A DNA stretch of 64,000 nt from positions 88,786,001 through 88,850,000 of the forward strand of contig NC_058368.1 in NCBI RefSeq assembly GCF_018350175.1, read 5' to 3'. A program made the translations under genes and the position numbers. Shown piece after piece: positions 42,313 through 64,000 of this stretch. Source of the stretch: Felis catus (lineage: Eukaryota). The notes beneath the pieces are model-generated. The model did no database searches. It was not told the origin of the DNA and saw nothing but the letters and a program-made list of their open reading frames with translations. Every line of letters begins with the position of its first letter. Within the stretch, counting starts at the first letter, position 1.

Positions 42313-42347
42313 AATAAATACACAGTAAAAAATTAAAAAAAAAAAAA
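42107..42347 (+). mobile_element. Can-SINE
   Basis: Consensus; TSD agaaa(t/c)tctcttcctg. Confidence 0.93.
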
Positions 42348-44000: not shown

Positions 44001-44309
44001 ATATACCATGCTAAAACTAATCAAAACAAACATCTCTTTCTTTGGGTGAAAGAGATGAATCTACTATTATAACTGGAGATTTCCTCATCCATTCATCATA
44101 AATGGACAGGTCCAGCAGGCAGAAAATCAGTAAGAACATAGCTGAATTCAACAACACCATCAACCAAATGGATGTAACATCTACAGATTACTTCATTTAA
44201 CAATAGAAGAACACACATGTCTCAAGCTCATGTGGAAAATACACCAAGACAGGCCACATTCTGGACCCTAAAGCACACCATGACAAATTTAAAACAACAG
44301 AAATCGTAG

Positions 44310-44635: not shown

Positions 44636-45162
44636 ATAATATCTGTTCCTAGACCACACTGAAACTAAACTAGGAATCAAGACCAACAGATAGCTAGAAA
44701 ATCCCCAAATACTTACAGATTAAACAACAAACTTCTAAATAATACATGGGCCAAAAAAAAAAAAAAAAAAAAAAAAAAAACCAAAAAACCTCAAGGGAAA
44801 GTTTTAAATATTTTGAACGACATGAAAATGAGAACACATCAAGACTTGTGAAATGCAGCAAAAACAGTGTATGGGGGAAATTTATAGCATTGAATGCATG
44901 ATTAGAAAATAAGAAAGATCTCAAAATCAATCACCTAAGCTTCTACCCTAGGAAACTAGGAAAACAAGATCAAATACAATTCAAAGTAAGCAGAAGAAAA
45001 GAACCAGTAAAGATTAGAGCAAAAAGAAAAGAAACTGAAAAGAGGATATTGACAAATTGATAAAACCAAAATCTGATTTTTTGAAAAGATAAATAAAATT
45101 TAAAAACCTCCAGGTTAATGAGAGAGAAGACACATCATTAGTATCAGAAATGGAGGAATGGA

Positions 45163-45372
45163 AGGGCGCCCGGGTGGCTCAGCTGGTGAAGTTTCCAACT
45201 TCAGATCTGGTCATGATCTCACAGTTTGTGAGTTCAAGCTCCATGTCCAGCTCTGTGCTGACCGCTTAGAGCTTGGAACCTACTTTAGCTTCTGTGTCTC
45301 CCTCTCTCTCTCTGCTCCTCTCCTACTCGTGCTCTGTCTCTCTCTGAAAAATAAAGGAGCATTAAAAAAAAG
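45163..45372 (+). mobile_element. Can-SINE
   Basis: Consensus; TSD aaatggagg. Confidence 0.9.
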
Positions 45373-46179
45373 AAATAAATGGAGGGAAAAATATCAATAC
45401 ATATCCCATGAACCTTAAAAGGATAATAAAGGAACACTATGAGAAACTCTGTGCCCGCACAATTGAGAACCTAGATGAAACAGACTAATTCCTTGAATAA
45501 CACAATCTGAAAACTCACACAATGAGAAATAGACAATCTAAATAAACCTATATTTATTTTTAAAATTGAATCAACAACTAATAACTTTAAAAAAAAAAAA
45601 GAACATGAGGCCCAGATGTGTTCACTGACTACCATTTAAGGGAGAAATTACACCAATTCTCCACAATATCTATCAGAGAATAAAAGCAGAGGGAATACTT
45701 CCTAACTCATTCTATGAGGCCAGCATTACCTTAACATCATATTGAATGGTGAGAAACTAAAATCTTTTCTACCAAGATTAGGAACAAGGCAAGGAGGTTT
45801 CCTCTCAACACTCCCTTTCAACATTATACTGGAAATTCTAGCTAATGCAATGAGATAAGAAAAGGAAATAAAAATGTATCTAGATTGAAAAGGAGAAAAT
45901 AAAATTCTTTGTTTTTGCAGATGGCATGACCATCCACGTAAAAAAAAATGAGAAAAATATCGGAAAACTGCTGAAACCAATAAATGATTATAGCAAGGTT
46001 GCTCCACACCTTCCACACCTGTGAGAAAGGCCAGACTCCAGAACACAGACAACACCAAATGATGGCTACCAACAAGTATGTGGAGCAACACAAACTCTGA
46101 GTGTGAGTTTGTGAGTGAGTGCAAAATGGTACAGCCACTTTGGAAAATAGTTCGGTAGTTTTATATAAAAACTAAACAT

Positions 46180-46410
46180 GGGGCACCTAGGTGGCTCAGT
46201 CGGTTAAGTATCCGACTTCAGCTCAGGTCATGATCTCACAGTTTGTGAGTTCAAGCCCTGCATGAGGCTATGAGCTGTCAGCCCATAGCCTGGAGCCTGC
46301 TTTGGATTCTGTGTCTCCCTCTTTCTCTGCCCCTCCCCTGCTCATGCTCTGTCTCTCTCTGTCTCTCTCTCAAAAATACATAAACATTAAAATAATAATA
46401 ATAATAACAT
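46180..46410 (+). mobile_element. Can-SINE
   Basis: Consensus with (AAT)n tail. Confidence 0.92.
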
Positions 46411-46414
46411 GCTA

Positions 46415-46770
46415 TTAAATAAAATGAATAAACAAACAGAAAACAGAATCAGATCCATAAATACAGAGAACAACTGGTGGTTGCCAGAGGAAAAGATGGT
46501 GGGTACATGGACAAAATGGGTGATGGGGAGTAGGACATACAGGCTTCTAGTTATGAGATGCATCAAGTTAAGGAAATGAAAGGCACAGAATAGGGAATAT
46601 AGTCAATGATATTGTAATACTGTTGCATGGTGACAAATGGTAGCCACACTTATGGTGAACACAGCATAACCTGTAGAGCTGTTGAACCAGTATGTTGTAT
46701 ACTTGAAACCAACATAACATTGTGTGTCAACTATACTCAAACAAGAAAATTGAAAAGAAAACAAAAAACT
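46415..46770 (+). mobile_element. L1 3' UTR fragment (L1MA9/L1_Carn-like) nested in L1MC
   Basis: acagagaacaactggtggttgccagagg..tagggaatatagtcaatgatattgtaata..aacataacattgtgtgtcaactatact. Confidence 0.8.
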
Positions 46771-49563
46771 CAACACACCCTTGCCATACGACCTAGCAAT
46801 TTGCTCTCCTTGGTCTTTACCCAAAGGAGTTGAAAAGTTAAGTCCGCATAAAAACCTGCCTCAGGATGTATATAGCAGTTTTAATTGCCAGCACAGTGGG
46901 TTGAATGGATGAATATCTGTGGTACATTCAGACACCAGAATACTGTTCAGTGTTAAAATAAAATGAGCTATCAAGCCATGAAAAAACACGAAAGAAACTT
47001 AAATGCATATTGCTAGGTGATAGAGGCCCATCTGAAAGATGCCACGTATGATTCCAACTCTATGACACACTGGAATAGGCAAAAAATACAGAGATGATAA
47101 AAGATCAGTAGCATTCCAAGGATTAGGGTCAAGGAAGGAACGAATATGCAGAGCAAAGGGAATTTTTAGGGCAGTGAAACTACTCTGTGTGATCCTACAG
47201 AGGTAGATATATGTCATTATATATTTGTCCAAACCCATAGAATACTGGACGCTAAGAACGAACCCTCAGGTGGCTGTCTGTCATCTTTGAGTCATAATGT
47301 TTCAATGTAGGTTCATCGATTGTAACAAATATGCCACTCCGGTGTGAGAAGTTGATCATAGGGAGGCTGTGTCTATGCAGGGGTGGAAGGTATACATGAA
47401 CTCCCTACCTTCTGCTCAATTTTGCTGTGAACCTAAAACTGCTCTAAAAAATAAAGTCTATTTTAAAGGAGAAAAGACTTCTCCAGACTAGTCTGCACAG
47501 TGATTGCCCTCCTCTTGTTGCATAGCTTACCATAAAGAGCAGGAATCTCTTCCATGTTTTTGCAAATTCTCACACTCCTTTCTGAGTTTGTTATCAGCTT
47601 CTGACATTTTACCCTTTGTGCTTTCATTGTGGGGAAATATAGCTGAGAGTTCCTTGAATGTGAACCTTTTGGCTGATGTAATTTACTTTCCTTGTTGCCC
47701 CTCGCCCCTGCTTGTGATTATCCAGTTTTGTGAATGGTGATATGGACATTCACTAGGACAACAAGGAAGCAGCCCAATGATACGTTTTGCTGTCTCTGTG
47801 TGAACTGAATGCCATGCACGGTGACCCAGCACTGACAGATCGAGACAGAAGTGACCACTGATCATGACACACATCTGTGATCTGCATAGTGATTTGAGTT
47901 CTGAAGGACTGGCTGTGAAGTTTGTTACTTTTGCAAACTTTCTAACTGTTAATATATGGTGTTGTTCCAGGACTGGGATTCTTTAACTAAATCATAGTAG
48001 CTGAAATTCATGCATAGGTGTCCTGTGCAGAGCAAGGACTGCCTGTATAGCGTGCATTTGATGGTAGTTTATTATAAGAAAATACGTACAAGAATGTAAG
48101 GTAGGATGAGGAGTACTATTCTTGTTACGATGAAGTCTTTACCTAAGCAGAACACAAAAGTGAGAGACCATAAAGAAAAAGACCGCAGATTTGACTTTGT
48201 AAAAGCTAAAAAAAATTCTACATGGCCAAAGATAATCTAAACAGAGTTAAAAGACAAGTGACTAATTAGGAACTATAATATCCTAAGAATTTGGCCAGCC
48301 ATTCCTTCCTCCACAACAGTATAAAGATGGGGAAATCTCAAGGAGTCAAACTTCATGGATCAATCAATAGCTGAGAGGTTAAACTCAATTTCTTATGGTA
48401 CAGACTTCATTTTATGGAATGCAAAGAACTTTCCAACAGAAAATGCAGAGTATTTCCAGTCTCATCGAGGTCCTGTGCAATGCACTTAGAGAAACATCAA
48501 GTAACTGTGTGTTAGATGAATTTATTTTCTGTTCTATAAGAAAAGAATAATTAACAGAATGGCTGTTTCTCCCCGGGGCAGAATTCCACTATTGTCTCTG
48601 CACCACTGAGCCTTGCAAAACATCGAAATCCATGGTCTCTAGCAAATCACTCTTAAACAATCAAGAGGGGAAGAAATGAAAAAGCTAATGAACTTGCCAA
48701 TTACCCTTATAGCCCTGACTCCTGAAAATAAGGATGATGGGAAATAGATGCCCAGGTATGGGGACCTTATAGGGATTCTATGTGCAGCAGAGAGGAAAGA
48801 AAGCCTCTGATAACCTACAGAGGTTGATTTATTCATAGTCTCAGTGGGAAAATGTTGATTAAGAAATGAGAGGCTACAGGCAGGAGCAGGTCCTGAAATC
48901 ATGCCAAAATACCTCAAATGTTCCTAAGGAATCCCGCGGACAACTGTGTCAGAGTGCAGCTGACAAATGGAGTATAGTAAGCACAGAGATTATGCCCTTG
49001 TCAGCCAGCATACGGAGAGCATTACTGATCCTCAGAAAAAATGTACTGTGACTGGGTCTAAAACCTGACTGGAATTTTCCATAGGTGTGTGATATTGGAG
49101 ACCGGTTTGCAGCTGCATTTGCCAAATCACCTTTGCAAAGCACAGTAGGTCACGGCCGGAGGAGCAAAGGCTGCTCTGCTCTTTCTCAAGCAGAGAAGGG
49201 TTTTCTAAGTGCCAAGTTCTCTCCCACAAAGGATGGGGATAGCCAATTATGGGTTAGTGATGAGTACAAGCATCTGTGATCCCTCAGCTAATTTCCATCT
49301 TGAAGTTGGGGTATAAAGTCTCAAGTGCTAGGTGATCAGTCACAATCCCTTTGAACAGGTGCTTAATCAGGACTGGATAGGATGCATTCAGGTTGGGCAT
49401 CTGGCATTTGGTACTAGCTCTTTCTCTGTCCTCTAGGATGGCTTCAGACTTTTTGTTTTGCATCTATAGTATTTGTTATTGTTGTTTTGTTATTTGAGTA
49501 CATATTAAGTAGTGATAACACTACTTGGTGGCATATTCAATAAAAAAAAAACTCCATTGTCAT

Positions 49564-49790
49564 GGGGTGCCTGGGTGGCTCAGTCGGTTGGGCGTCCGAC
49601 TTTGGCTCAGGTCATGATCTCACCATCCGTGAGTTCAAACCCCGCATCAGGCTCTGTGCTGACAGCTCAGAGCCTGGAGCCTGCCTCGGATTCTGTGTCT
49701 CCCTCTCTCTCTGACTCTCCCCTGTTCATGCTCCGTCTCTCTCTCTCTCTGTCTCAAAAATAAATAAACATTAAAAAATAAATAAAAAAC
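49564..49790 (+). mobile_element. Can-SINE
   Basis: Consensus. Confidence 0.94.
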
Positions 49791-50030
49791 CCTCCATTAC
49801 CAAGTGCAAACCAAACAGTAAATGCTTTATCTTAGGAAGCCTGAATAGCAGTTTTCTGAGCTCTTTTATTCTGGGAAATGTTCATAAATACACCAGGAGA
49901 ACAAAGTGAGAAGAAGGAGACTGTACCTAGCCTTTTATCAATGCAGTGTGACTCTTAACCAAGGATACACAGTGGCTAAAAACACAGGGTAATATTGGTT
50001 TGGAGTGTGTCCTAAAGTCAGCATGCCAGA

Positions 50031-50031
50031 T

Positions 50032-50074
<43 letters not shown>

Positions 50075-50084
50075 TATGTTTATT

Positions 50085-50125
<41 letters not shown>

Positions 50126-50298
50126 ATGAGTGGGGGAGGGGCAGAGAAAGAGGGAGACAAGGGAGACACAAATCCAAAGCAGACTCCAGGCTCTGAGCTG
50201 TCAGCAAAGAGCTCGACATGGGGCTCAAACCCGCTAACTGCAAGATCATGACCTGAGCCAAAGTCAGTGGCTTAACCGACTGAGCCACCCAGGTGCCC
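50031..50298 (-). mobile_element. Can-SINE with (TTTA)n and (GA)n
   Basis: Reverse consensus; TSD agcatgccaga. Confidence 0.94.
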
Positions 50299-50384
50299 GA
50301 GCATGCCAGAATTTAAATTGCCACTCTGAAACATAAGACCTTGGGACAAATTACTTCTCTAAACTTTTTTCCTGCATCTCAGAA

Positions 50385-50830
50385 AAATAATACCCTTGCC
50401 GTAAAATGTCCATGTCCTAATCCCCAGGACCCGAGAATGTCACCTTAAAGGGCAAAAGGGATCTTATAGATGGGATTGTTAAGGATCTTAAGATGGAGAT
50501 ATTATTTCAGATTATCTGATGGGCCCTAAAATAACCCCAAGTGTCCTAAGAGAAAGGCAGAGGGAAATTTTACCACAATTAAAGAGAATGTGTTGATGAA
50601 ACAGGGACTAGATTAATGTGGTCAAAAGGCAAGGAATGGTAGCAGCCACCAGAAGCTGGAAAAGGTAAGGGCATGGAGCTTCTAGAGGGAGCACAGCCTT
50701 GCCAACTCCTGATTTCAGCCTAGCGAAAATGGTTTTGGACCTCTGACTTCGAGAACAGTAAGAGAAAATGTGTTTTAAGCCACCAAGTTTGTGGTGAATT
50801 GTTATGGCAGCCATAAGGAACCCATACCTC
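50385..50830 (+). mobile_element. MaLR LTR (MLT1C/D-like)
   Basis: atgtccatgtcctaatcccc..ccaccagaagctgga..ttttaagccaccaagtttgtggt..gcagccataaggaa. Confidence 0.85.
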
Positions 50831-50867
50831 ACAGGAACTGTTACTCCAGATAAAATGTGTGACTTGT

Positions 50868-50983
50868 AGTTCGTAGGTTCAAGCCCCACATTGGGCTCTG
50901 TGCTGACAGCACAGGGTCTGCTTGGGATTCACTCTCTCCCTGTTTGCCCCACCCCACTCTAAAAATAAATAAGCTTAAAAAAA
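50868..50983 (+). mobile_element. 5'-truncated Can-SINE
   Basis: ttcaagccccacattgggctctgtgctgacagc; TSD aaaatgtgt(g/a)act. Confidence 0.85.
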
Positions 50984-51109
50984 TGTGTAACTGGAAATAC
51001 ACTTAGTAACATGTCTAACATACAGTAGGGATGCTGTAAATGTATATCCTTCTTGGAAACTGAAGCTTGGTTTAAGGGATCATTGAAACCAGTACAATGG
51101 TCACCATTG

Positions 51110-51327
51110 TTTTAATATGTATTTGTTAACATTTTATTTATTTTTGAGAGACAGAGAGACAGAGTGTGAGCAGGGGAGGGAAGAGAGGGAGACACAGAAT
51201 CAGAAGCAGGCTCCAGGCTCTGAGCTGTCAGCACATTGCCTGTGGCAGGGCTCAAACCCACAAACTGTGAGACCATGACCTGAGCTGAAGTTGGACACAT
51301 GACCAATTGAGCCATCCAGGCACCCCC
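51110..51327 (-). mobile_element. Can-SINE
   Basis: Reverse consensus; TSD aatggtca(c/g)catt. Confidence 0.93.
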
Positions 51328-51749
51328 AATGGTCAGCATTTTTGTCCACGTTCATCATGGTAAAAATGCCTAGACACCTGCTAGAAAGATCTCTATACTC
51401 CCTCACAATGCCCCACTTCTCCTAATAGAGGGGAAAGATTCCTTCTCCTCACTTAAGTCACATTATTATTTTCCTTTCTACTTTATTATTATTAGTAGTA
51501 GTAGTAGTATTACTCTTCATTCAACCAGTCTTTCCGAACTTTAAACAAACTCATTTCTCAGTGGATTCAGGTGCTATCTTAATTAACATCCCAACAAGCA
51601 TCTTATTATTTCTAGGCCTCATCACCAGAAATTTCTGAACTTAGCTCCTCCTCAGTTTCTGCTGTCATTCATTTTCTCATTTCTCCCCTCTGATTTTAGT
51701 TCATTCTTGACCACTTAGTCCTTTCCTTAAACACAGTTTTTAATAAGGT

Positions 51750-51980
51750 AACAGAGCGAAGTGGTAAAAGTCTAAATGGCCTTGTTTCAAATCTTGGGTT
51801 TTGTCATCCACTTACTGTGTGACGCTGGACAAGCTATTTAACCTCTCTGCTTCCCCCCCAGAAATGGCTATTATGAATAATACCTACTGCTATTATGAAG
51901 ATAAGTGAGTTAATATTTGCCAAGTTCTTACCATAGCACTATAGTCACAGTGTAAGCGCCACAAATGTATTTGCGAGCAA
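51750..51980 (+). mobile_element. MIR
   Basis: ccacttactgtgtgacgctggacaagctatttaacctctctg. Confidence 0.7.
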
Positions 51981-52355
51981 TGATAAATGCAAAGTCCAAG
52001 CATATACTTTTCTCAACTTTCAGTCATAACTTTGAGATATGTATTTGGTGAAATCAATATAAGCCTTTTCAAGGGACACACAAGATATTTCTATCAAGAA
52101 AAATTGTTGTAAATGATTGTCCATGTGGCTAGTTTGGGTGTTTCACCAGTGTTTCCAAATTTCTCTATGACAGCCTGGGTTTAGTCCAGTGAAAAATTAG
52201 AAACTTGAGCTTCTGTTTTAAACCCTTTACCTTAAGGCCTCCCACCCTCATCTCTTTGCCCATCAACTTTCATTTGTCCTCCATGCTATGAAAATCTACT
52301 TCTAAGAAAGTCTCTGACGTCCAGCTTAGCATGGATTTAAAACAAAGGCACTGTT

Positions 52356-52578
52356 GGGGCACCTGGGTGGCTCAGTCAGTTAAGCATCTGATCTCAGCTC
52401 AGGTCATGATCTTGCATTTCGTGGGTTGGAGCCCCGCGTCAGGCTCTGTGCTGACAGCTCAGAGCCTGGAGCCTGCTTTGGATTCTGTGTCTCCTTCTCT
52501 CTCTGTTCCTCCCCTGCTCACACTCTGTCTCTCTCTCTCTCTCTCTCAAAAATAAATAAAGGTTACAAAAAAAAAATT
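52356..52578 (+). mobile_element. Can-SINE
   Basis: Consensus; TSD aaaacaaaggcact. Confidence 0.95.
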
Positions 52579-53894
52579 AAAACAAAGGCACTATTTGCAC
52601 AAAAGACACTAGCTTTCAGGAGTTGTTTTGTCTTGCTTTGTTTGGTTGCCCTCCTCCCACTGGCAGCCTCGGACAAAAATCCAAAGATCCACGTCGTGAC
52701 TCTAATTCTTAGCCCCTGTTTGATTATGTGAGCTCAGTTCTCCTACCTGGAAGGGGTATCTGAGAGAAATGCTCTGTCTTTGGGGCTGTTGAAAAGAACA
52801 TTTCCAGCTTAGGTATGAACTGTTGCCAGGAAGCCTGGTTATATCACATCACCCCAGGATCCTAGCAGTGATTGGCTCAGGAAGGGCCTGAACAGGCTCA
52901 TCACAGGTAGTTTCAAGGTCTCTAAAATGAATGCAGTTAGGGCAAGAAAGACATGTATCAAGGAGTCTGAACTACTGAAAATTTTCACAAACTACTTTTT
53001 AGTTCTTGAGAAACAGATGCAGGGAAAAAGTCCTGCTTATCACTAAGAGTTTTAGCCCAAAATGCTATACAAAATTTCTAATCTTGTAAAACATATGGGA
53101 TCTTTGGTGAGCTCTCACTGAAGGCCTAGTCCAGTGTGGTACAATATGAAATGTGGACTACCTGGAGTGCTAGCTAAAACCCATACTGCTGTTTCTCCTA
53201 CAAAGCTACAAAATTAAGATGATCGGGCCAGAATGATGCATTTCTCATAATTAGTGATTAGTGAGCATTTCTGGCCTAGCCTAAAGGCAGTCTGAGTAGT
53301 CCCTTTGGCCCCCTTTCTTCTGGGATCATATCCTTTGGTGTTATAGCTTCCAAACTGAGGAGGGGAGGTACAAGGGTTCTAGAAAAAGAAGGAAGGGACC
53401 CAGCCAAGTAAAGAAAATAATCTCAAGTTTGAAAATAAAATATTTTTTAATGTGCAAATAGTGCAAGGATTAAAAAAGAGAAATAGTTCAAATTTTAGTA
53501 AAAATAATTTAAAATACATGAGAAGTATAAACCAAACTAAAACGTAGCATGATTTTGAACAACTGATGTTAAAGACAAGACAGAGCACTATACTGACAGA
53601 GCAGAAAATACAGTCCTCTCACACTACTTTCCCCAGAACTAAGCAATACTTCATCAATACAGTTTGTTGGTTTTCAACCCTTAGAGCCAACCTGTGGATA
53701 AAACACAGAGCACTTTGCTATAACTGTTTGGCAACATGTCAATGCTAACAATACAGACAAACAAAAGCAAGCACGTATTCACAGAAGGTGATTCGTACAA
53801 GGGGAAAGGAAAGGTAGAGGGACTACAGGGCACAGCCTCGTGCATAGAGAAAATCATGAGGTTAGGGTGAAAATTAATAACACAAGACATAAAG

Positions 53895-54150
53895 AATAAT
53901 AGCTAAAGTTTCTTGAGTTCTTCTGTGTGTTAGACACTAAAGGCTACAAATGCATTATTATTTGCACTATCACAAACAATCCCATAAGGTAAAGAGGTAT
54001 CCTTTTCTCTGGTTTGTGGATGACAAAACAATGGGTACAGGTAGGATGTGTAAATGTCACAGGGATACAAAACTAATAAAAACTGAAGAACAAGGATTCT
54101 AACTCCAGGAGTCCATCTCCAGGACCAGTGCTTTTAGCCTTCTGCTACTA
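53895..54150 (-). mobile_element. MIR
   Basis: aataatagctaa..cacaaacaatcccataaggta..ggattctaactccagg. Confidence 0.6.
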
Positions 54151-54508
54151 CTTTCCTCACCAAGAAAGCCAGCAAAATTACATGAAGTTACCAGAGAGAA
54201 GCAGGAAAATTAATTGAATATGACATATTGGAAAGGAAGAGGGAGGGAAAACAGTGGTAGTGGAGTTTTATCTTCCTCCATAATGTTAGAGCAGTAAAAA
54301 TATTGTCTAAAGTGAGTATGTCATGATACAGCAAGATAAGCATAATGTTTAGAATTAAGGGGATGACATCAAAGTAGCAAAAACCTATCTCTGGAGAGGG
54401 GAACTCAGGAGAAAAGGGCTGCATTTCAATATGATTCAAGTTGTTATTGTGCTTATGTATTATTGTCATAAAAACAAAATATTTCTGTTTATTTAGAAAT
54501 TGCTACTA

Positions 54509-54658
54509 TGGGGCGCCTGGGTGGCTAAGTAGGTTAAGCGTCCAACTTCAACTAAGGTCATGATCTTGTGGTTCGTGGGTTTGAGACCCATATCAGGCTC
54601 TATGCTGATGGCTCAGAGCCTGGAGCCTGCTTCAGGTTCTGTGTCCCCCCTCTCTCTG

Positions 54659-54714
<56 letters not shown>

Positions 54715-54746
54715 AAATAGACATTAAGACAGATTAAAAAAAAAAA
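54509..54746 (+). mobile_element. Can-SINE with long (CT)n
   Basis: Consensus; TSD agaaattgct. Confidence 0.94.
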
Positions 54747-54790
54747 GAAATTGCTTCTACTGTGTAAGTGCATCAAAACATGAAATTCAA

Positions 54791-54975
54791 GTGGCACCTG
54801 GGTGGTTCAGTTGGGTGAGCATCCAAATGCAGCTTAGGTCATGATCTCATGGTTTGAAGTCAAGCTCCGCATCAGGCTCTCAGCTGTCAGCTCGGAGCCT
54901 GCTTCAGATCCTCTGTGTCCCTGGCTCTTTGCCCTTCCCAACTTGTGCTCTCTCTCCAAAATATTTAAAAAAAAC
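54791..54975 (+). mobile_element. Can-SINE
   Basis: Consensus; TSD aaattcaa. Confidence 0.88.
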
Positions 54976-55576
54976 AAAACATAAAATTCAAAATCTTTAC
55001 ATCTATTACATATTTGTTAGCTGTTTGTCTTATCAGGATATTACTTTTAGTTTGAAGGCTTTTAAGAAATCAGGAAGTATAAATGTTTACAAGTTGTCCC
55101 TGGTAATATTACCAGGCATGGATGAGAGAGGGTGCAGGACTATTAGAAGCAAACTGGATTTCAACACTGCTTCTGAGAGTCAGTTCTCTACAAAGGGCAG
55201 ATGATTCTCTGCAGTCACAGAGCACAATGAAGGAGCTTTGATCCTCTGGAACTGTAATAAACAACTCAGAGTAAATGAATCAGGCAGAGAGTGCCAGGAG
55301 GGATCCGGCAGCCTCTATGTGCTGGCGTTCTTTGTTTTTACAAGGCTAATCTCATAAATGTTGCAGTAGGCTCAATGCTGTTCATTTTTTAGACTCAGTT
55401 ATCGTATTTTTCCACGTGTTTACTTCATAAAAGTAGGCACTTTTATGCTCATGTTAAAATGGGATCTCCTGTTCGAATTTCCTGGTGAAGGCAACTGAAG
55501 CATTATTGCCTAAGGAACTCATTAAGTGTAGATATATTATATCTCCCATTTCCATCCATGTATTATGTATTTACAT

Positions 55577-55603
55577 ATCTATCTATCTATCTATCTATCT
55601 ATC
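55577..55603. repeat. (ATCT)n microsatellite
   Basis: About 6 ATCT units. Confidence 0.85.
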
Positions 55604-57333
55604 ATGCATCTATCCTTATTTATAGAACAAAACAACAATAATAATTTAAATTACTTCCTTACCTTATTTTAGTTTAGCCTTCCAAAAATCTTGTAAGGTA
55701 AATAGGCCATGTAAAAGCATTGAGTTCACTGAGACACTTGAAGGATGGCTCTACCATTTTTCATTGTGCAACCAATAAATGGTGCAGGGAATCCAACCCA
55801 CATCTTCTCTGTCCTTCTCTCTTACCTTCCTAGCCTGTTCAAATCCCACCTTCCTTGTGAGGCTTATGCTGTCCACTGTTTAAATTGAAAGCTGTGATTT
55901 TGCCTAAATCTCAATGCTCCCTATGCTACTTTATACTCTATAACATTAGTTACTGGCTAACCTACCAGATAATTTCCATGTTTGTATTTTTGCTCCCATC
56001 CATCTAGAGTGTAGGCTCCACAGAGTCATGAATTTTACCTTTTTAAGTCTAGTGGAGATCCAGCAAAAAAGTCTAGTGTCAGCCAGAACTGGGCACAGTT
56101 GTAACTTGTGTGATTTGATATTTTAGTAATTTAGATCAGAGCTGGGCCACTTACTGAAGAGCATCTCTTCTACTGCATTTAAGCAGCACAATACATTCAA
56201 AGAAACTGAAATTTCCAACAATTACAGAGTGGGTATGTGCCCTTTCTCCCTTTGTTCCTCCAGGCTCAAATCTATCCTCTCTGGGCGATATGGGAATGTG
56301 TAAGAATGACTGGCCTAAGTCTAAATTAAATAAGAAGACACACACAAGAAAACATTTAAACATTTCTAAAAAAAAATCATTGAGTGGTTTCCTTTGACAC
56401 ATCAGAGGTTATCTAGCCTCTAGTAAGGTCAGAGGGGGGTGAGAGAAGAGCGAAACACAGAGGGAAGAAGCAGGGGTGAGCCACCTCATCTCTCCCTCCT
56501 TTGGACCTTACTTCCTCCTGGATTGTCATCCCTTACATTCAAAATGCAGATTGCAGGAGTCAGTGTGTGCAGGTAGAGCATGTGGCCACTTCTACATCCC
56601 AGTCACTGCAACGCGGAAAATTCAACATGGTTAAGTCTGGCTCAGCCCATCACCACTCACACAGGTTAATTCTTTCTCTACTGCTGAGTCAAAAAGACAC
56701 ATGAGCAAAGGCAGATTAATAACAAAGTTTTATGCACGTTAAGTACACAATGTGGAAAGGATAAAAGCCCATCGAGGCAAATAGGTAGGGGTAAAGGAAG
56801 CCCCTACAGGCAGCAGTGGTATCCTGCCTGTTCCAAGACCAGAGAAAACTGGCCCAGAGCTTGGGTCAGCCAAGTTCACAGTCAACGCCAGGGATGGCAC
56901 GGTTGATGATTTATGTAGCTTTCTTCCATTCTCCACTAGAACTTCTTGAATCTGGTGTCTTTCTGGTGTAGTTCTAAATGGGGCTCATGTGCCCCTTGCC
57001 CTCCAATACATACACATGCAGAGAAATACACATCAATACATGTATGCACACAATGTACACACTTTCTGTGAGAAGAGATCAGGGTAACTTTCACTTAAAT
57101 GGGTTGGGCCCCTTTCTGATGCAAAGAAGTCAATTTCTGGTTATATCCAATTTGCAGAGGAATATTAGGTCCTTATTCATGACAAAAGAAAGGAATTTGT
57201 AGGTGAAATCCTAGTCATGTTTTGAAGGTGCTTCAGTCATGCCCAGAGCACAGGCCCAGTTGACCAGGACACATACAGTGTTTGATCCTCCAAAGTCAGA
57301 GGAGTACCTGACTAGGACAAGTCCAAGTTCTGT

Positions 57334-57900
57334 TTAAAATTTCCTGGTGCTATCCCCCATTGCAACACCAGTGCTGTGCTTATGGGGGGGGGGGGGGGCA
57401 CATGTGCTCTGTGTGGCTGAGGGACCATAAGTGTATCCAGTCATAGCAGGCATGGAGCTATTCCCCAGAGCAACACCTGTGTTAGGGGTAAGTGAGCTCC
57501 CAGTGTTATTATGGGGGGGTGCCGATATAGAGGCATGCCATCATAGATGTGATACTGTCTGCATTCACAATGGCACTTTCTGCGTTCGCATTGGGTCGGC
57601 CGCAATTATTCTGATGTGAAGAACTACTAGGTTCTACATTCATGGTAATGACGTTGTCCCCTCCGTGCATACCATCTGTAGGCTGGGCGGGAGGACCGCA
57701 TTTGCATGGAAGGATGGTGGAACTACAAGTGAGTCCAAGCATAGAGCTGGTGCTGCCACTTGCCACTGCAGCAGAGGCAGTGTGGCCAGGCAAGTCCGAG
57801 GGGAGTATGTAGGGGGTAAACACGCATGCCTCTTGATACACGTGTCTTCTCCTTGGTAGTGGCTCTTCCACGGAAAGCAATTAGTTCTTGTGTACATGGC
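57334..57900 (-). pseudogene. NPAP1/POM121L-like C-terminal coding remnant
   Basis: ORF 57509..57880 (EACVFTPYILPSD..AQPTDGMHGG..NVEPSSSSHQN..SITSMMACLYIG). After a 1-nt shift it continues GNSSMPAMTGYT..PPPHKHSTGVAMGDSTRKF*, resembling recalled NPAP1 ACVFLSLPIIPPPD and GASNIPVFGYT..PPTQNSCSGMGGDGTR. Also resembles the tail of the 11-kb locus. Confidence 0.55.
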
Positions 57901-60900
57901 TTCCGGGTGCACTTCTGGCTAACAATAAGAAGATGGCTTCCACCTGCGGGAACACTGTGGCCCTCTCCCACTACTCCATCACCTGGGTTTTGGCCAGCTT
58001 GCCCCCTGCTGATCAGATTTAAGAAGCAGGCTGGCACGTGTGCTGACCCACGTTTCCTCTCGGTGCTTGTGGCTCGGTCATGTGAGGCAAGTTTTCTATG
58101 TGCAGATGGGTTCTGGGTGCCCTTGGGGCTAACAGGAACACTAGAATTTCTACCTGTGGGAAGACTGTGGCCCTCTCCCACTACTCCATCACCTGGGTTT
58201 TGGACAGCGAGCCCCCTGATGATCAGATTTAAGAAGGAGGCTGGCACCTGTCCTGACCCAGGTTTTGTCTCGGTGCTTGTGGCTCCATGATGTGGGGCAA
58301 GTTTTCATCATGCAGATTATCTCTGGGTGCCCTTGGGGCTAACAGGAATACTAGAGCTTCTACCTGCGGGAAGACTGTGGCCCTCTCCCACTACTCCATC
58401 ACCTGGGTTTTAGACGGCTGGTCCCCTGACGATCAGATTTAAGAAGCAGGCTGGCACGTGTCCTTACCCACTTTTCTTCTTGGTTCTGGTGGTTCGGTCA
58501 CCTGGGCCAAGTTTTCTTTGTCCAGATTGGCTCTGGGTGCACTTGAAGCTAACAGGAATACTAGAGATTCCACGTGAGGGCACAGGGCAGCCCTCTCTAA
58601 CTACTCCATCACCTGGATTTTTGATGGCAGGCCTCCAGCTGCTCAGACTTAAGGGGGAGCCTGGCATGTCTCCATGCTGATGGTTCGGTCACGTGGGGCA
58701 AGTTTTCTTTGTGCATATTGGCTGTGGGTGCCCTTGGGGCTAACAGGAACACTAGAGCTTCTACCTGCGTGAAGAGCGTGGCCCTCTCCCTCTACTCCAT
58801 CAGCTGGGTTTTAGACAAGTAGCCCCCTGCCGATCGGATTTAAGAAGTAGGCTGGTACATGTCCTGACCCACGTTTCCTCTCCATACTGGTGGCTCGGTT
58901 ACATGGGGCAAGTTTACTTTGTGCAGATTGGTTCTGGGTGCCCTTGCAGCTAACAGGAAAACTAGAGCTTCTACCTATGGGAAGACTGTGGCCCTCTCCC
59001 ACTACTCCACCTGGGTTTTGGACAGCTAGCCACCTACCGATCAGATGTAAGAAGGAGGCTGGCACGTGTTCTGACCCAGGTTTTGTCTCTGTGCTGGTGG
59101 CTCAGTCTCCTATGGCAAATTTTCTTCGTGCACATTAGCTGTGGGTGCCCTTGGGGCTAATAGGAACACTAGAGCTTCTCCCTAAACGAAGAGCATGGCC
59201 CTCTCCCACTACTCCATCACCTGGGTTTTGGAAGGCTTGCCCCTGCCCATCAGATTTAAGAAGCAGGCTGGCATGTGTCCTGAACCAAGTTTCTTCTTCA
59301 TGCTGTTGGCCCAGTCACATGGGGCAAGTTTTCTTTGTGCACATTGGCTCTGGATGCCCTTGGGGCTAACAGGAACACTAGAGCTTCTACCTACGAGAGG
59401 AGCATTGCCCTCTCCCTCTGCTCCATCAACTGGGTTTTGGGCAGCTGGCCCCCTACCCATCAGATTTAAGAAGCAGGGTGGCACGTGTCCTGACCCACAT
59501 TTCTTCTTGGTTCTTGTGGCTCAGTCATGTGGGCCAAGTTTTCCTTGTGCAGTTTGGCTCTGGGTGCCCTTGAGGCTAACAGGAATATTAGCGACTCCAC
59601 GTGAGGGCATAGGGTGGCCCTCTCCCACTATTCCATCACCTCAATTTTTGATGGCTGGCCCGCTGCTGCTCAGACTTAGCGGGGAGCCTGGCATTTGTCC
59701 TAACACTCCTTTCTTCTCCATGCTGGTGGTTCGGTCACGTGGGGCAAGTTTTCTTCCTGCAGATTGGCTGTGGGTGCCCTTGGGGCTAACAGGAACACTA
59801 GAGCTTCTCCCGGAACGAAGAGCGTGGCACTCTCCCACTACTCCATCAGCAGGGTGTTGGACATCTTGCCCCCTACCGATCAGATTTAAGAAGGAGACTG
59901 CCACCTGTCCTGACCCACGTTTCTTCTTGGTGCTGGTGACTCGGTCACATGGGGCAAGTTTACTTTGTGCAGATTGGTTCTGGGTGCCCTTGAAGCTAAC
60001 AGGAAAACTAGAGCTTCTACCAATGGGAAGACTGTGGCCCTCTCTGACTCCATCACCTGGGTTTTGGACGGCTGGTCCCCTGACAATCAGATGTAAGAAG
60101 GAGGCTGGCATGTGTCCTGACCTGAGTTTCGGCTCCGTGCTGGTGACTTGGTCTCGTGGGGCAAGTTTTCTCCATGCAGATTGTGTCTGGGTGCCCTTGG
60201 GGCTAACAGGAACACTAGAACTTCTACCTGCACGAAGAGCGTTGCCCTCTCCCACTGTTCAATCACCTGGGTTTTGGAAGGCTCACCTCCTGCCGATCAG
60301 ATATAAGAAGCAGGCTGGCCCGTGTCCTGACCCAAGTTTCTTCGTCATGCTGTTGGCCCGGTCACGTGGGGCAAGTTTTCTCTGTGCAGATGATCTATGG
60401 GTGCCCTTGCAGCTAACAGGAACACTAGAGCTTCTACCTGGGCGAAGAGCGTGGCCCTCACACTCTGCTCCATCAACTGGGTTTTGGACAGCTGGTGTCC
60501 TGCCCATCAGATTTAAGAAGCAGGCTGGCATGTGTCCTGACCCATGTTTCTTCTCGGTTCTCGTGAATCAGTCACATGGGCCAAGTTTTCTTTGGTGTTT
60601 CTCAGTCACATGGGCCAAGATTGGCTCTGGGTGCCCTTGAGGCTAACAGGAATACTAGAGACTCCACGTGAGGGCACAGAGCGGCCCTCTCCCACTACTC
60701 CATCACCTGGATTTTTGATGGCTGGCCCCCTGCTGCTCAGACTTAAGGGGAAGCCTGGCATGTGTCCTGACATGCTTATCATCTCCATCCTGATGGCTCA
60801 GTCATGTGGGGCAAGTTTTCTTCATGCAGATTGGCTCTGGGTGCCCTTGGGGCTAACAGGAAAACTAGAGCTCCTCCCTGAATTAAGAGCGTGGCACTCT

Positions 60901-63900
60901 CCCACTACTCCATGAGCTAGGTTTCGGACGGCTTGCCCCCTGCTGATCAGATTTAAGAAGAAGACTGACACCTATCCTTACTCACGTTTCTTCTTGGTGC
61001 TGGTGACTCGGTCATGTGGGGAAAATTTTCTTTGTGCAGATTGGTTCTGGGTGCCCTTGCAGCTAACAGGAACACTAGCGCTTTTACCTGCATGAAGAGC
61101 GTGGCCCTCTCCCACTACTCCATCATCTGGGTTTTGGATGGCTGGCCCACTGCCGAACAGAATTAAGAAGCAGGCTGGCACGTTTCCTGACCCACGTTTC
61201 CTCTCCATCCTGATGGCTCTGTCACGTGGGACAAGTTTTCTTTGTGTACATTGGATCTGGATGCCCTTGGGGCTAACAGGAAAACTAGAGCTTCTACCTG
61301 TGTGATGAGCATGGCCCTCTCCCTCTACTCCATCACCTGGGTTTTTGACAGCTAGCCCCTGCCCATCAGATTTAAGAAGGAGGCTGACACCTGTCCTGAC
61401 CCAGGTTTCTTCTTGGTGCTGGTGAATGAGTCACGTGGGATAAGTTTTCTTTGTGCAGATTGGTTCTGGGTGCCCTTGCGGCTAACAGGAACACTGGCAC
61501 TTCTGTCTTCTTGAAGAGGGTGACCTCTCCCACTACTCCATCACCTGGGTTTTGGACGGCTGGCCCTCTGCCAATCAGATTTAAGAAGCAGGCTGGCCCG
61601 TGTCCTGACCCAAGTTTCTTTGTGCTATTGGCCAGATCACGTGGGGCAAGTTTTCTTTGTGCAGATTGTCTCTGGGTGCCCTTGTGGCTAACAGGAACAC
61701 TAGAGCTTCTACCTGCGTGAAGAGTGTGGCCCTCACCCTCTACTCCATCACCTGGGTTTTGGACGGCTGGCCCTCTGCCAATCAGATTTAAGAAGTAGGC
61801 TGGCATGTGTCCTTACCCATGTTTTGTCTCCGTGCTGATGGCTCAGTCACGTGGGATAAGTTTTCTTCGTGTACATTGGCCCTGGGTGCCTCTGGCCCTC
61901 TAGTGCCCTCAGGAACACTAGAGCTTCGACCTGTGCAATGAGCATGGCCCTCTCCCTGTACTCCATCACCTGGATTTTTAACAGCTAGCCTCCTGCCCAT
62001 CAGATTTAAGAAGCAGGCTGGCACTTGTTCTGACCCACATTTTGTCTCCATGCTGCTGGCTCGGTCACATGGGACAAGTTTTCTGTGTGCAGATTGGCTC
62101 TGGGAGCCCTTGGGGCTAACAGGAAACACTGTGGCCCTCTCCCACTACTCCATCACCTGGGTTTTGGTGGGCTATTCCCCTGACGTTCAGATTTAAGAAG
62201 TAGGCTGGCACGTGTCCTGACCCATGTTTCTTCTTGGTTCTCGTGCCTTGGTCACGTTGGCCAAGTTTTCTTTGTATAGATTGACTCTGGGTGCCCTTGG
62301 GGCTAACAGGAACACTAGAGCTTCTACCTAGTGAAGAGCATGGCCCTCTGTCACTACTCCATCACCTGTGTTTTGGACGTCTTTTCCCCTGCTGATCAGA
62401 TTTAAGAAGGAGGCTGACACCTGTCCTTACCTACATTTCTTCTTACTGCTGGTGACTGGGTCACGTGGGGAAAGTTTTCTTTGTGCAGATTGGTTCTGGG
62501 TGCCCTTGTAGCTAACAGGAACACTAGAGCTTCTACCTGCGGGAACACTGTGGCCCCTGTCCCACTACTCCATCACCTGGATTTTTGATGGCTGGCCCCC
62601 TGCTTCTCAGACTAAGGGGGAGCCTGGCATGTGTCCTGACACTCGTTTCTTTTCCATGCTGGTGTTTCCGTCAGGTGTGGCAAGTGTTCTTTGTGCAGAT
62701 TAGCTCTGGGTGCCCTTGGGGCTAACAAGAACACTAGAGGTTTTACCTGCGTGAAGAGCATGGCTCTCTCCCACTACTCCATCACCTGGGTTTTGTACAT
62801 CTTGCCCCCTGCCCATCAGATTTAAGAAGCAGGCTGGCACGTGTTCTGAACCAAGTTTCTTCTTTGTGCTGGTGGCTGGGTCACGTAGGGAAAGTTTTCT
62901 TTGTGCAGACTGTCTCTGGGAGCCCTTGGGGCTGACAGAAAAACTAGAGCTTCTACCTGCGGGAACACTGTGGCCCTCTCCCACTACTCCATCACCTGGG
63001 TTTTGAATGGCTGGTCCCCTGATGGTCAGATTTAAGAAGCAAGCTGGTACGTGTCCTGACATACGTTTCTTCTCAGTTCTTGTGGCTTGGTCACGTGGGC
63101 CAAATTTTCTTTGTGCAGATTTGCTCTGGGTGCCCTTGAGTCTAACAGGAATACTAGAGACGCCACATGAGGGCACAGGGCGACCCTCTTCCACTACTCC
63201 ATCACCTGGATTTTTGATGGCTGGCCCCCTGTGGCTCAGACTTAAGGGGGAGCTTGGCATGTGTCCTGACACTCCTATCTGATGGCTCGGTAATGTGGGC
63301 CAAGTTTTCTTCATTCATATTGGCTGTGGGTGCCCTTGGGGCTAGCAGGAACACTAGAGCTTCTCCTTGAACAAAGAGCGTGGCCCTCTCCCACTACTCC
63401 ATCTCCTGGGTTTTGGACGGCTGGCCCTCTGCCGATCAGATTTAAGAAGCAGGCTGGCACGTGTCCTGACCCATGTTTCTTCTCGGATCTCGTGGCTCAG
63501 TCACATGGGCCAAGTTTTCTTTGTCTAGATTGGCTCTGGGTGCCCTTGAGGCTAACAGGAATACTAGAGACTCCACGTGAGGAATACTGGAGACTCCAGG
63601 CTGGCACAGGGCGACCCTCTCTAACTACTCCATCACCTGGATTTTTGATGGCTGGCCCCCTGCTGCTCAGACTTAAGGGGAAGCCTGGCATGTATCCTGA
63701 CACCCCTATTGTCTCCATGCTGATGGCTCAGTCACATGGGGCAAGTTTTCTTCGTGCAGATTGGCTCTGGGTTCCCTTGAGGCTACAGGAACACTAGAGC
63801 TTCTCCCTGAATGAAAAGCATGGCCCTCTCCTACTACTCCATGAGCTGGGGTTTGGACGGCTCGCCCCCTGGCGATCTGATTTAAGAAGGAGGCTGATAC

Positions 63901-64000
63901 CTGTCCTGACCCACGTTTCTTCTTAGTGCTGGTGACTCAGTACCTGGGGAAAGTTTTCTTTGTGCACATTGGTTCTGGGTGCCCTTGCGGCTAACAGGAA
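57830..64000 (-). repeat. 210-bp (70-codon) tandem array, at least 29 diverged units, runs off the window end
   Basis: Anchor cagatttaagaag recurs at ~58014, 58224, 58434, 58644 ... 63877. Minus-frame unit NPGDGVVGEGHSLPTGRSSSVPVSPKGTQSQSAQRKLAPRDRATSTEKKRGSGHVPACFLNLIGRGPAVQ. Confidence 0.97.

What the first reader, a model, noticed from the sequence alone, without database searches (positions are those of the whole stretch)
57830..64000. A 210-bp, 70-codon tandem array that appears to be an amplified piece of a POM121/NPAP1 nucleoporin retrogene
Seen: at least 29 units of 210 bp sit directly upstream (minus strand) of a unique NPAP1/POM121L-like tail, and the most degenerate unit (~57830-57950) grades into that tail. 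Seen: part of the unit aligns at DNA level to the POM121-like pseudogene 48 kb away. 60706-60737 cctggatttttgatggctggccccctgctgct vs 12335-12368 cctaagtttttgattgctgagtccctctgctgct gives about 27/34 by hand, with peptides GPAIKNPG vs DSAIKNLG. Recalled knowledge: POM121L1 has RVQENPGD..PGPLQTDLH, echoed by AVQNPGD and, in another frame, PRAPRTNLH. Inference: a satellite-like array was born inside a nucleoporin retrocopy, giving either a lineage-specific repeat protein or a coding-derived macrosatellite. I do not recognise it as a named repeat.
Basis: partly seen in the sequence, partly recalled or inferred. Interest (0 to 1): 0.85.

Follow-up and report, generated by a model that had tools for sequence, protein, structure and literature searches.

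The report
Expanded repeat in dead nucleoporin-like gene
About 46 copies of a 210-base unit grew out of the normal 70-amino-acid repeat of a cat-family nuclear-pore-associated gene (NPAP1-like), inside a duplicated copy that has decayed into a pseudogene, so it is a tidy evolutionary relic and not a new gene.

Summary
The 210-bp array is real. There are 29 whole units at 57924-64000, and it runs 3.6 kb past the window to about 46 units (9.6 kb).

Read on the minus strand, it is the internal 70-codon repeat of an NPAP1-like (NPAP1L, POM121-family) gene. A Pfam POM121 domain (47 bits, cut-off 27) lies 5' of the array just outside the window. The tail at 57334-57923 is 91% identical to the 3' end of two intact 1,493-codon paralogues on contig C31. 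Those sit between two TLE genes, the published NPAP1L position, and carry only about 6 units. Carnivore orthologues carry 1-13.

The copy here is a dispersed segmental duplicate, about 92-94% identical over more than 26 kb of flank, and it is dead:
- 12 frameshifts outside the array;
- 41 in-frame stops in the array, and frameshifts in 26 of 46 units;
- only 8 units intact;
- dN/dS 0.9.

The units are old: nearest pairs differ by about 10% at non-CpG sites. They form locus-specific subfamilies with a roughly 5-unit higher-order pattern.

The claimed link to a "POM121-like pseudogene" at 11000-12750 has no support. The repeat was not born here, only expanded. Expression could not be tested. Interest is modest.

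The parts
57334..57713 (-). Unique C-terminal tail and stop codon of the NPAP1-like pseudogene
   Evidence: Aligns to nt 3990-4482 (ending in TAA) of the intact C31 CDS at 91.1% identity. There is a 1-bp frameshifting insertion at 57519 and a 9-bp in-frame insertion at 57398. TBLASTN needs three frames to cover the tail. Pfam finds nothing in it.
57714..57923 (-). Degenerate terminal repeat unit (unit 48) that grades into the tail
   Evidence: 64% identical to the unit consensus. It matches unit 7 of the intact C31 genes and unit 3 of the C2 copy. A 1-bp frameshifting insertion lies at 57805.
57924..64000 (-). The 210-bp (70-codon) tandem array: 29 whole units (units 47 down to 19) plus the first bases of unit 18. 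The array continues to about window-equivalent 67535 in locus L006, giving 46 units in all.
   Evidence: Units are 80-91% identical to the consensus and on average about 80% identical to each other. In the sense frame only 8 of 46 units are intact, with 41 stops and 26 units frameshifted.
58134..60857 (-). Stretch with the clearest higher-order pattern: units 34-38 and 39-43, then 44-46 as a part of a third round, in a roughly 5-unit (about 1.05 kb) order of subfamilies
   Evidence: Best partners lie at lag 5 for units 33/38, 36/41, 39/44, 40/35 and 43/38. Mean identity is 0.815 at lag 5 against about 0.79-0.80 at other lags. Subfamily membership comes from the unit tree.
59186..60640 (+). Incidental 484-codon antisense open frame inside the array
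   Evidence: Listed. It has no Pfam hit. Over the whole array the antisense frame carries 47 stops against 41 in the sense frame. The best plus-strand frame of the intact C31 repeat has 5 stops. Codon position 3 of this frame is the least variable position. It is therefore not a conserved gene.
30969..56978 (.). Flank shared with the ancestral NPAP1L locus (segmental duplication)
   Evidence: Megablast blocks at 92-94% identity link window 30969-56978 to C31:21715666-21741372, and window 43098-58023 to C2:60573000-60558313. The outer ends were set by what I queried or fetched, so the duplicated segment may be longer.
12335..12368 (.). It is not part of the feature.
   Evidence: The string match is real. 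No protein, DNA or profile search supports homology of 11000-13100 to the POM121/NPAP1L family.

Best explanation
Window 57334-64000, together with the next 6.6 kb beyond the window, is the minus-strand body of a dead, segmentally duplicated copy of the carnivore NPAP1-like gene. NPAP1L is an intronless retrogene descended from the nucleoporin gene POM121.

The intact gene carries a short run (about 6 units in this genome) of a basic, Gly/Ser/Pro-rich 70-residue repeat near its C-terminus. In this copy the run grew to about 46 units (9.6 kb). Growth most likely came from unequal crossing-over or replication slippage between repeat units, partly in blocks of about 5 units, at about the time the copy was made and selection on it lapsed.

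Since then the array has simply decayed through CpG-driven stops, 1-bp indels and unit truncations, without recent homogenisation. It is best described as a coding-derived minisatellite or macrosatellite inside a pseudogene, with no protein product.

Shown: the identity of the gene, the pseudogene state, the copy numbers, the age pattern and the segmental duplication. Inferred: the mechanism of expansion, its timing relative to loss of function, and the lack of function.
For: Gene identity
- Of 39 flank ORFs scanned, L006:5283-6101(-) hits Pfam POM121 PF15229 (E=3.5e-12, 47.1 bits, cut-off 27, profile positions 8-231 of 235).
- Of its 11 database relatives, 9 are named nuclear pore-associated protein 1 or 1-like by their sources, 8 from carnivores and one from a bat. 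The other two are an unnamed record and an unrelated name.
- An intact C31 protein maps along the minus strand from window-equivalent 70524 to 57340.

Repeat frame
- Two intact ORFs on C31 (1520 and 1517 codons stop to stop) read the same unit in the same frame.
- A unit profile finds 6 stretches in the C31 protein, 5 in the Felis catus entries, 13 in P0006, 3-4 in two pinnipeds and 2 in hyaena.

Ancestral locus
- The C31 pair (21.742 and 21.772 Mb) lies between TLE-family hits at 21.10-21.14 and 22.85-22.88 Mb. This is the NPAP1L synteny described in PMC3942032 (passages read).

Duplicate
- Flanks are 92-94% identical to C31 and C2 over tens of kb.

Pseudogene state
- The 5' part is 92.3% identical with 13 gaps, 10 of them frameshifting, including a 230-bp insertion. 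The tail has 2 frameshifts, and one in-frame stop lies at codon 166.
- In the array, 8 of 46 units are intact, with 41 stops and 26 units frameshifted.
- dN/dS against C31 is 0.90 for the 5' part.

Expansion continued after lesions arose
- Sister units 13/26 share TAA at codon 30, and units 42/46, which share a small clade with unit 37, share TAA at codon 9.

Age
- Nearest-unit divergence is a median 9.7% at non-CpG sites, against dS 0.086 between C1 and C31.
- Jaguar and clouded-leopard models are 94-96% identical in protein to this locus, against 75-88% to C2 and C31.

Not an assembly artefact
- 14 runs labelled DNA or of unknown type hold 72-81% of the sampled 31-mers of 57000-61000. All 20 holders come from 13 studies.

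Not a dispersed satellite
- A search of the whole genome with two units found only the C31 and C2 NPAP1L loci.
Against: - Transcription was not tested.
- NCBI gene models exist at the orthologous loci of two other felids (a 'LOW QUALITY PROTEIN' NPAP1 and a 'UPF0607' model). Such models can reflect transcript evidence.
- The order of events is uncertain. C31 units 3-6 form one clade only at SH-aLRT 85, and 27 of 54 inner branches of the unit tree are unresolved. A large ancestral array that later shrank in C31 cannot be excluded from this genome alone.
- Some 1-bp indels could be assembly errors. The 41 substitution stops and the 5- to 230-bp indels cannot.
- The intact gene's own repeat shows dN/dS of about 1 between the two C31 copies (8 synonymous against 22 non-synonymous changes). 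Weak constraint alone therefore does not mark a pseudogene.
Confidence: 0.85

Rival explanations
1. The array was already long in the ancestral NPAP1L gene, was copied as such to C1, and later shrank at C31 and C2. The long array is then ancestral and not specific to this locus.
For: Even the nearest units differ by about 10% at non-CpG sites, which is no younger than the C1-C31 split (dS 0.086). C31 units 3-6 form a single clade nested among C1 subfamilies, which would fit recent re-growth from one unit. The C2 copy has clearly contracted to a chimeric unit. One orthologue (P0006) holds 13 units in frame.
Against: Intact orthologues from feliform and caniform carnivores mostly hold 1-6 detectable units, so a small ancestral number is the more parsimonious. 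All six C1 subfamilies are found at C1 only. Shared stop codons between sister units show that duplication continued in a non-coding state.
Confidence: 0.1
2. The locus still encodes a lineage-specific repeat protein on the minus strand, and the apparent lesions are assembly errors or are bypassed by splicing.
For: The consensus is open over 70 codons. Minus-strand ORFs of up to 205 codons survive. NCBI built protein models at the orthologous loci of jaguar and clouded leopard.
Against: There are 41 substitution stops in 46 units, 26 frameshifted units, and 12 frameshifts plus a 230-bp insertion outside the array. dN/dS is 0.90. Codon position 3 is the least variable position. The jaguar model is flagged LOW QUALITY and stops before the array, and the clouded-leopard model is 299 residues long. 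Many independent runs hold the same 31-mers.
Confidence: 0.03
3. The plus-strand 484-codon ORF (59186-60640) is a new antisense gene born from the array.
For: It is the longest open frame in the region, and the consensus is open in that frame.
Against: Over the whole array that frame has 47 stops, as many as the sense frame. It is closed in the intact C31 repeat, with 5 stops in the best plus-strand frame. It has no Pfam hit. Its codon position 3 is the least variable. No database search for homologues of this ORF was run.
Confidence: 0.02
4. The array has taken on a non-coding role, for example as a transcribed long non-coding RNA, or as a GC-rich macrosatellite that organises chromatin, as is reported for some macrosatellites (recalled).
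For: It is a 9.6-kb GC-rich block (52-53% GC against 36-41% in the neighbouring sequence). A contig-derived protein from another source (P0012) matches units 22-24 at 92.6% against 71% or less for other units, which suggests positional stability across relatives.
Against: There is no sign of constraint: CpG sites are about 3.5 times more variable than other sites, and CpG is already at half its expected frequency. Units decay independently.
Confidence: 0.06

Closest known systems
[quoted passage not shown] 2014, Genome Biol Evol, PMC3942032
   Same: Both carry the Pfam POM121 domain. The intact paralogues have an intronless single ORF, and database relatives are named NPAP1 or NPAP1-like. The intact pair on C31 sits between two TLE genes as two neighbouring copies, as published for dog and elephant.
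   Different: The locus in the window lies on another chromosome-sized contig (C1). It is a DNA-level duplicate, is disrupted throughout, and carries about 46 repeat units instead of about 6. The word 'repeat' does not occur in the main text of that paper, so the 70-residue repeat itself is not described there. Its supplements were not read.
POM121 (vertebrate transmembrane nucleoporin), the parent of the family
   Same: The N-terminal POM121 homology region, PF15229.
   Different: By the paper, POM121 has conserved introns and a transmembrane first exon that the retrogenes lack. The repeat here is not an FG repeat: Phe is about 0.5% of the C31 repeat region. The unit profile gave no significant match to ORFs from three other POM121-family loci of this genome.
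Human NPAP1 (C15orf2) and the UPF0607 proteins, primate-specific derivatives of NPAP1L
   Same: They belong to the same retrogene family according to PMC3942032. One felid model at the orthologous locus is even labelled UPF0607 by its source.
   Different: The paper says they are restricted to primates, so the felid 'UPF0607' and 'NPAP1' labels are naming by similarity. Whether the primate proteins contain the 70-residue unit was not tested here.
In-frame expansion of the same repeat in another NPAP1-like protein (P0006, 1907 residues)
   Same: The same 70-residue unit, amplified to 13 detectable copies.
   Different: There the frame is kept and the units look very similar to each other by eye. 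Here the array is 3.5 times longer, the units are about 80% identical, and the frame is destroyed.
Coding minisatellites and ORF-bearing macrosatellites in general (for example mucin VNTRs and D4Z4; recalled, not tested)
   Same: A tandem array whose unit is a whole number of codons and derives from coding sequence. It grows by unequal exchange and shows higher-order structure.
   Different: No intact ORF, no recent homogenisation, and a single long array at one locus.

Membership tests
POM121 family / NPAP1L | Pfam PF15229 (POM121) domain above the gathering score | tested here: met
   L006:5283-6101(-), 5' of the array on the same strand, scores 47.1 bits against a cut-off of 27 (E=3.5e-12). 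It lies outside the window. No ORF inside the window hits it.
POM121 family / NPAP1L | Closest relatives are NPAP1 or NPAP1-like proteins along the whole gene | tested here: met
   9 of 11 hits carry an NPAP1 or NPAP1-like name. The C31 protein aligns from residue 25 to 1492 along window-equivalent 70524-57340.
POM121 family / NPAP1L | Single intronless open reading frame (functional retrogene) | tested here: not met
   This is met by the two C31 paralogues (1520- and 1517-codon frames). It is not met by this locus, which has 12 frameshifts outside the array, 41 stops in the array and 26 frameshifted units. The locus is a pseudogene of the family and not a working member.
POM121 family / NPAP1L | Position between TLE1 and TLE4 (the orthologous NPAP1L locus) | tested here: not met
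   TLE_N hits flank the C31 pair, and none lies on C1. The window lies on C1, so it holds a dispersed paralogue and not the orthologue.
FG-repeat nucleoporin domain | Repeated Phe-Gly motifs in the repeat unit | tested here: not met
   The 387-residue repeat region of the intact paralogue has about 0.5% Phe and no Trp or Tyr, with pI 11.2 and 35% Gly+Ser+Pro. No FG dipeptide occurs in the 70-residue consensus translation.
Satellite DNA or macrosatellite | Head-to-tail array of many units | tested here: met
   46 units over 9.6 kb.
Satellite DNA or macrosatellite | Homogenised units and/or many genomic loci | tested here: not met
   Mean unit-to-unit identity is about 0.80 and the best partners reach 0.73-0.91. 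The genome search found the unit only at the C31 and C2 NPAP1L loci. That tool gives lower bounds.
Named repeat families (Dfam/Repbase) | Match to a curated repeat consensus | not testable with these tools

The most novel reading that the evidence does not exclude
The expanded array is not inert. It may have been kept since before the big-cat/small-cat split as a transcribed, GC-rich, coding-derived macrosatellite, acting as a long non-coding RNA or a chromatin-organising element, perhaps with variable copy number among cats. A weaker version is that the undescribed 70-residue basic repeat of carnivore NPAP1L is a functional module whose copy number (1 to 13 in frame) tunes a nuclear-pore-associated function.
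Probability: 0.07. Interest if true: 0.5.

Novelty: new member of a known kind. Interest (0 to 1): 0.3.

Why it matters
- It settles what the array is and removes a possible false "new repeat protein".
- It documents a 70-residue tandem repeat module in carnivore NPAP1-like proteins. The one paper on NPAP1L in the searchable library does not mention it in its main text.
- It shows that this module is unstable: 1-13 copies in frame in different species, contraction to one chimeric unit in one dead copy, and expansion to 46 in another.
- It explains why annotation pipelines produce "LOW QUALITY PROTEIN NPAP1" and mislabelled "UPF0607" models at the orthologous locus in other felids.
- In practice, the array may be a copy-number-variable marker in cats. 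It is also a worked example of how a coding repeat turns into a minisatellite once selection is lifted.

Tried and rejected
1. Pfam on 10 ORFs from the array, the tail and 11150-13987 gave no POM121 hit, only two weak unrelated matches. The family signal came only from the flank beyond the window.
2. Codon-position variability among units: position 3 of both open frames is the least variable (0.071 against 0.143 and 0.104 at non-CpG sites). This argues against purifying selection. I did not test it statistically. It probably reflects decayed Arg-codon CpGs, which is inference.
3. Finding the ends of the duplicated segment by searching the genome with window 40001-50500 and with L007 was swamped by interspersed repeats and was uninformative. 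I fetched the flanks directly instead. The ends remain set by what I fetched.
5. phmmer of a 205-residue array ORF against 1.84 billion representatives gave only 4 hits. These were short contig-derived fragments, the hyaena protein and the clouded-leopard model. This helped place orthologues but said nothing about function.
6. A single-sequence AlphaFold2 model of the intact repeat region had mean pLDDT 35.8 and essentially no secondary structure. This is compatible with disorder, but a single-sequence model is weak evidence, so no fold search was made.
7. Earlier notes of this scan held nothing on this place or on NPAP1/POM121.
8. A 420-bp higher-order repeat, suggested by the TRF row, was rejected. 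Mean identity at lag 2 (0.799) is no higher than at other lags, and only lag 5 stands out slightly (0.815).
9. The relaxed unit-profile search in otter, harbour seal and bat proteins gave only marginal single stretches (E 0.006-0.65). Whether a single proto-unit predates Carnivora is left open.
Full report
**The observation**

Tandem Repeats Finder reports a 210-bp period at 57936-62130 (20 copies, 77% matches) and a 420-bp row reaching the window end. Base identity at lag 210 is 0.46, against about 0.26 at neighbouring lags. One seed unit gives 29 BLASTN hits, all within 57936-63998 and none elsewhere in the window.

I cut 29 units and built a 210-bp majority consensus. The consensus is 58.6% GC, with 9 CpG observed against 18 expected. 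It is open in one minus-strand frame and one plus-strand frame. The array is therefore real, and the unit is a whole number of codons.

**Beyond the window**

The window is G000:C1:88786001-88850000, in a 2.43-Gb genome of 71 contigs. I fetched the next 30 kb. The array continues for 3,605 bases into L006.

In coding orientation I count 46 canonical units (units 2-47; window-equivalent 67535 to 57924). They are framed by a half-degenerate leading unit and a degenerate trailing unit at 57923-57714.

**What gene it belongs to**

Of 39 ORFs from the two flanks, one hits Pfam POM121 PF15229. It is L006:5283-6101 on the minus strand, 5' of the array, with E=3.5e-12, 47.1 bits (cut-off 27) and profile positions 8-231 of 235.

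Its 11 database relatives (search restricted to longer proteins) include 9 named nuclear pore-associated protein 1 or 1-like by their sources:
- jaguar, 91% identical, flagged LOW QUALITY;
- tiger, 69%;
- two seals, a sea lion, an otter, a hyaena and a bat.

P0003, unnamed in that list, shares a 90% cluster with a Felis catus entry named NPAP1-like.

**Intact paralogues and the ancestral locus**

A search of the genome with two units found the repeat only on contig C31 (two places 30 kb apart) and on C2. Both C31 copies are uninterrupted frames of 1520 and 1517 codons, 1493 from the first Met. Each has a leading half-unit, five full units and the degenerate trailing unit.

TLE-family N-terminal domains lie at C31:21.10-21.14 Mb and 22.85-22.88 Mb, on either side of the pair at 21.742 and 21.772 Mb. 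This is the arrangement published for NPAP1L: a POM121-derived intronless retrogene between TLE1 and TLE4, with two neighbouring copies in dog and elephant (PMC3942032; abstract and passages read).

C31 therefore holds the ancestral NPAP1L locus. The copies on C1 (this window) and C2 are dispersed duplicates.

**How the copy arose**

The flanks align at 92-94% over long distances:
- window 30969-56978 with C31:21715666-21741372;
- window 43098-58023 with C2;
- on the other side, up to window-equivalent 70942 with C31 and 75372 with C2.

The outer limits were set by what I fetched. A shared flank of more than 26 kb means a DNA-level segmental duplication, not a fresh retroposition.

**State of the copy**

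I compared this locus with the intact C31 CDS.
- The 5' unique part (2,716 aligned nt) is 92.3% identical with 13 gaps. Ten of them shift the frame: 8-, 14-, 5-bp and five 1-bp deletions, plus 17-bp and 230-bp insertions.
- The tail (492 nt) is 91.1% identical, with two 1-bp frameshifts at 57805 and 57519.
- One in-frame stop lies at codon 166, and the ATG is kept.
- TBLASTN needs repeated frame changes to follow the protein.
- In the array, 8 of 46 units are intact in the sense frame. There are 41 stops, and 26 units carry a frameshift.
- Twelve of the stops are CGA-to-TGA changes at consensus codon 20.
- dN/dS against C31 is 0.90 for the 5' part (55.5 synonymous, 147.5 non-synonymous differences) and 1.7 for the tail.

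For comparison, the two C31 copies give 0.31 in the 5' part but about 1.0 in the repeat, on small counts. The parent's repeat is therefore itself weakly constrained.

This locus is a pseudogene. Assembly error cannot explain substitution stops or multi-base indels. In addition, 14 runs labelled DNA or of unknown type hold 72-81% of the sampled 31-mers of 57000-61000, and all 20 holders come from 13 studies.

**Internal structure and age of the array**

Mean unit-to-unit identity is about 0.80 at every lag, with a slight rise at lag 5 (0.815). Each unit's best partner is 0.73-0.91 identical.

I built a quick ML tree of 57 units. It omitted the leading and trailing degenerate units of each locus. 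Of its 54 inner branches, 27 are unresolved. It shows:
- unit 2 is positionally orthologous in C1, C2 and C31 (support 100);
- C31 units 3-6 fall in one clade (support 85);
- the C1 units fall in several C1-only subfamilies.

The order of subfamilies along the array repeats roughly every five units near the 3' end (units 34-38 and 39-43, with units 44 onwards beginning another round). It is more scrambled upstream.

Sister units share identical non-CpG stop mutations. Units 13/26 share TAA at codon 30. Units 42/46, which share a small clade with unit 37, share TAA at codon 9. At least some unit duplication, or gene conversion, therefore happened after the frame was already broken.

Nearest-unit divergence at non-CpG-prone columns is a median 9.7% (range 5.8-13.2%). 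This is about the same as the C1-C31 synonymous distance of 0.086. The expansion is thus roughly as old as the duplication, and there has been no recent homogenisation.

The locus predates the split between small cats and big cats. This is inference from protein identity:
- a clouded-leopard model is 96% identical to this locus, against 83-88% to C31 and C2;
- a jaguar model is 94% identical to this locus, against 75-77% to the others;
- a short contig-derived protein from another source matches units 22-24 at 92.6%, against 71% or less elsewhere, which suggests unit-by-unit orthology in a relative.

**Copy number elsewhere**

A profile built from the C31 units finds the following numbers of stretches:
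- 6 in the C31 protein;
- 5 in the two Felis entries;
- 13 in P0006 (1907 residues, unnamed source);
- 3 in the tiger model, which ends inside the repeat;
- 4 in monk seal and 3 in sea lion;
- 2-3 in hyaena;
- only marginal single stretches in harbour seal, otter and a bat.

The C2 copy has collapsed to one chimeric unit. The repeat is thus an old and unstable feature of carnivore NPAP1L. This locus holds by far the longest run I saw.

**Nature of the repeat**

The repeat region of the intact protein has pI 11.2 and is 35% Gly+Ser+Pro. It has about 0.5% Phe and no Trp or Tyr. It is not an FG repeat.

A single-sequence AlphaFold2 model has mean pLDDT 35.8 and essentially no secondary structure. 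This is compatible with disorder but is weak evidence.

**The plus-strand ORF**

The 484-codon frame at 59186-60640 is incidental:
- over all 46 units that frame has 47 stops, against 41 in the sense frame;
- the best plus-strand frame of the intact C31 repeat has 5 stops;
- position 3 of both open frames is the least variable position.

**The claimed relative at 11000-12750**

The 27/34 match between 60706-60737 and 12335-12368 is real as a string. It is also the best match for that 32-mer in window 1-57300. However, it was picked after the fact from about 6 kb of array, and no search supports homology:
- four ORFs there gave no POM121 hit in Pfam;
- TBLASTN with 12 NPAP1-like proteins, and BLASTN with the intact CDS and the consensus, gave nothing below E=0.2 in window 1-57300;
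- TBLASTN with ORFs from three other POM121-family loci of this genome, and nhmmer with the unit profile, gave nothing below E=1.

I treat the match as chance.

**Mechanism (inferred)**

A segment of more than 40 kb carrying one NPAP1L copy was duplicated to C1 before the felid radiation. In the redundant copy, unequal exchange or slippage among the pre-existing 210-bp units expanded the run about eightfold, partly in multi-unit blocks. Frame-breaking mutations arose during or soon after this. The array then decayed neutrally, fastest at CpG sites, which vary 0.37 against 0.11 for other sites.

**Literature**

In the searchable library only PMC3942032 contains 'NPAP1L'. Its main text does not contain the word 'repeat'. 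I did not read its supplements. I know of no description of this array, but this absence rests on those two searches only.

**What stays open**

- Copy-number variation among individuals.
- The true ends of the duplication.
- Whether the ancestral array was short, as I favour, or long.

**Verdict**

The array is a real and correctly oriented observation, with a largely correct family assignment. It is an expanded coding repeat fossilised in an NPAP1-like pseudogene. It is a new example of known processes and is of modest interest.

Noticed in passing
G000:C1:89638673-89639329 (locus L021:2664-3938, minus strand), about 790 kb from the window: This is the strongest POM121-domain hit of the genome (297.8 bits), in an open 425-codon frame on the same contig as the window. 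It is a different, apparently intact POM121-like gene with no similarity to the array.
   Followed up: partly
G000:C2:60553627-60558397 (loci L011 and L014): A third NPAP1-like copy, also about 92-93% identical to this locus. Its repeat has collapsed to one chimeric unit, and the reading frame is broken (the longest ORFs are 394 and 277 codons, and there is a TGA inside the POM121 domain).
   Followed up: partly
L006:5008-5237 (window-equivalent about 69008-69237): A 230-bp insertion interrupts the pseudogene relative to the C31 CDS. Parts of it match two other places in the window (30057-30157 and 32187-32311), so it is probably an interspersed repeat.
   Followed up: partly
window 10000-14000: A block of higher GC (49-50% against 34-40% around it). 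No family was found for its ORFs, and what it is remains unexplained.
   Followed up: partly
L007:6860-9978 (C1:88866860-88869978): A roughly 3-kb stretch with dozens of 87-90% identical copies across the genome. It is presumably a LINE-type interspersed repeat.
   Followed up: no
window 50030-50123, 54650-54712, 55576-55614: Simple microsatellites (ATTT, GA, CT, TATC) in the duplicated flank.
   Followed up: no
G000:C31:21742 kb and 21772 kb (loci L013 and L012): The two intact NPAP1L copies differ by only dS 0.016. They still show dN/dS of about 1 in the repeat and about 2 in the tail (1 synonymous against 6 non-synonymous changes). This points to a recent tandem duplication or gene conversion, with weak or diversifying selection on the C-terminal third.
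   Followed up: partly
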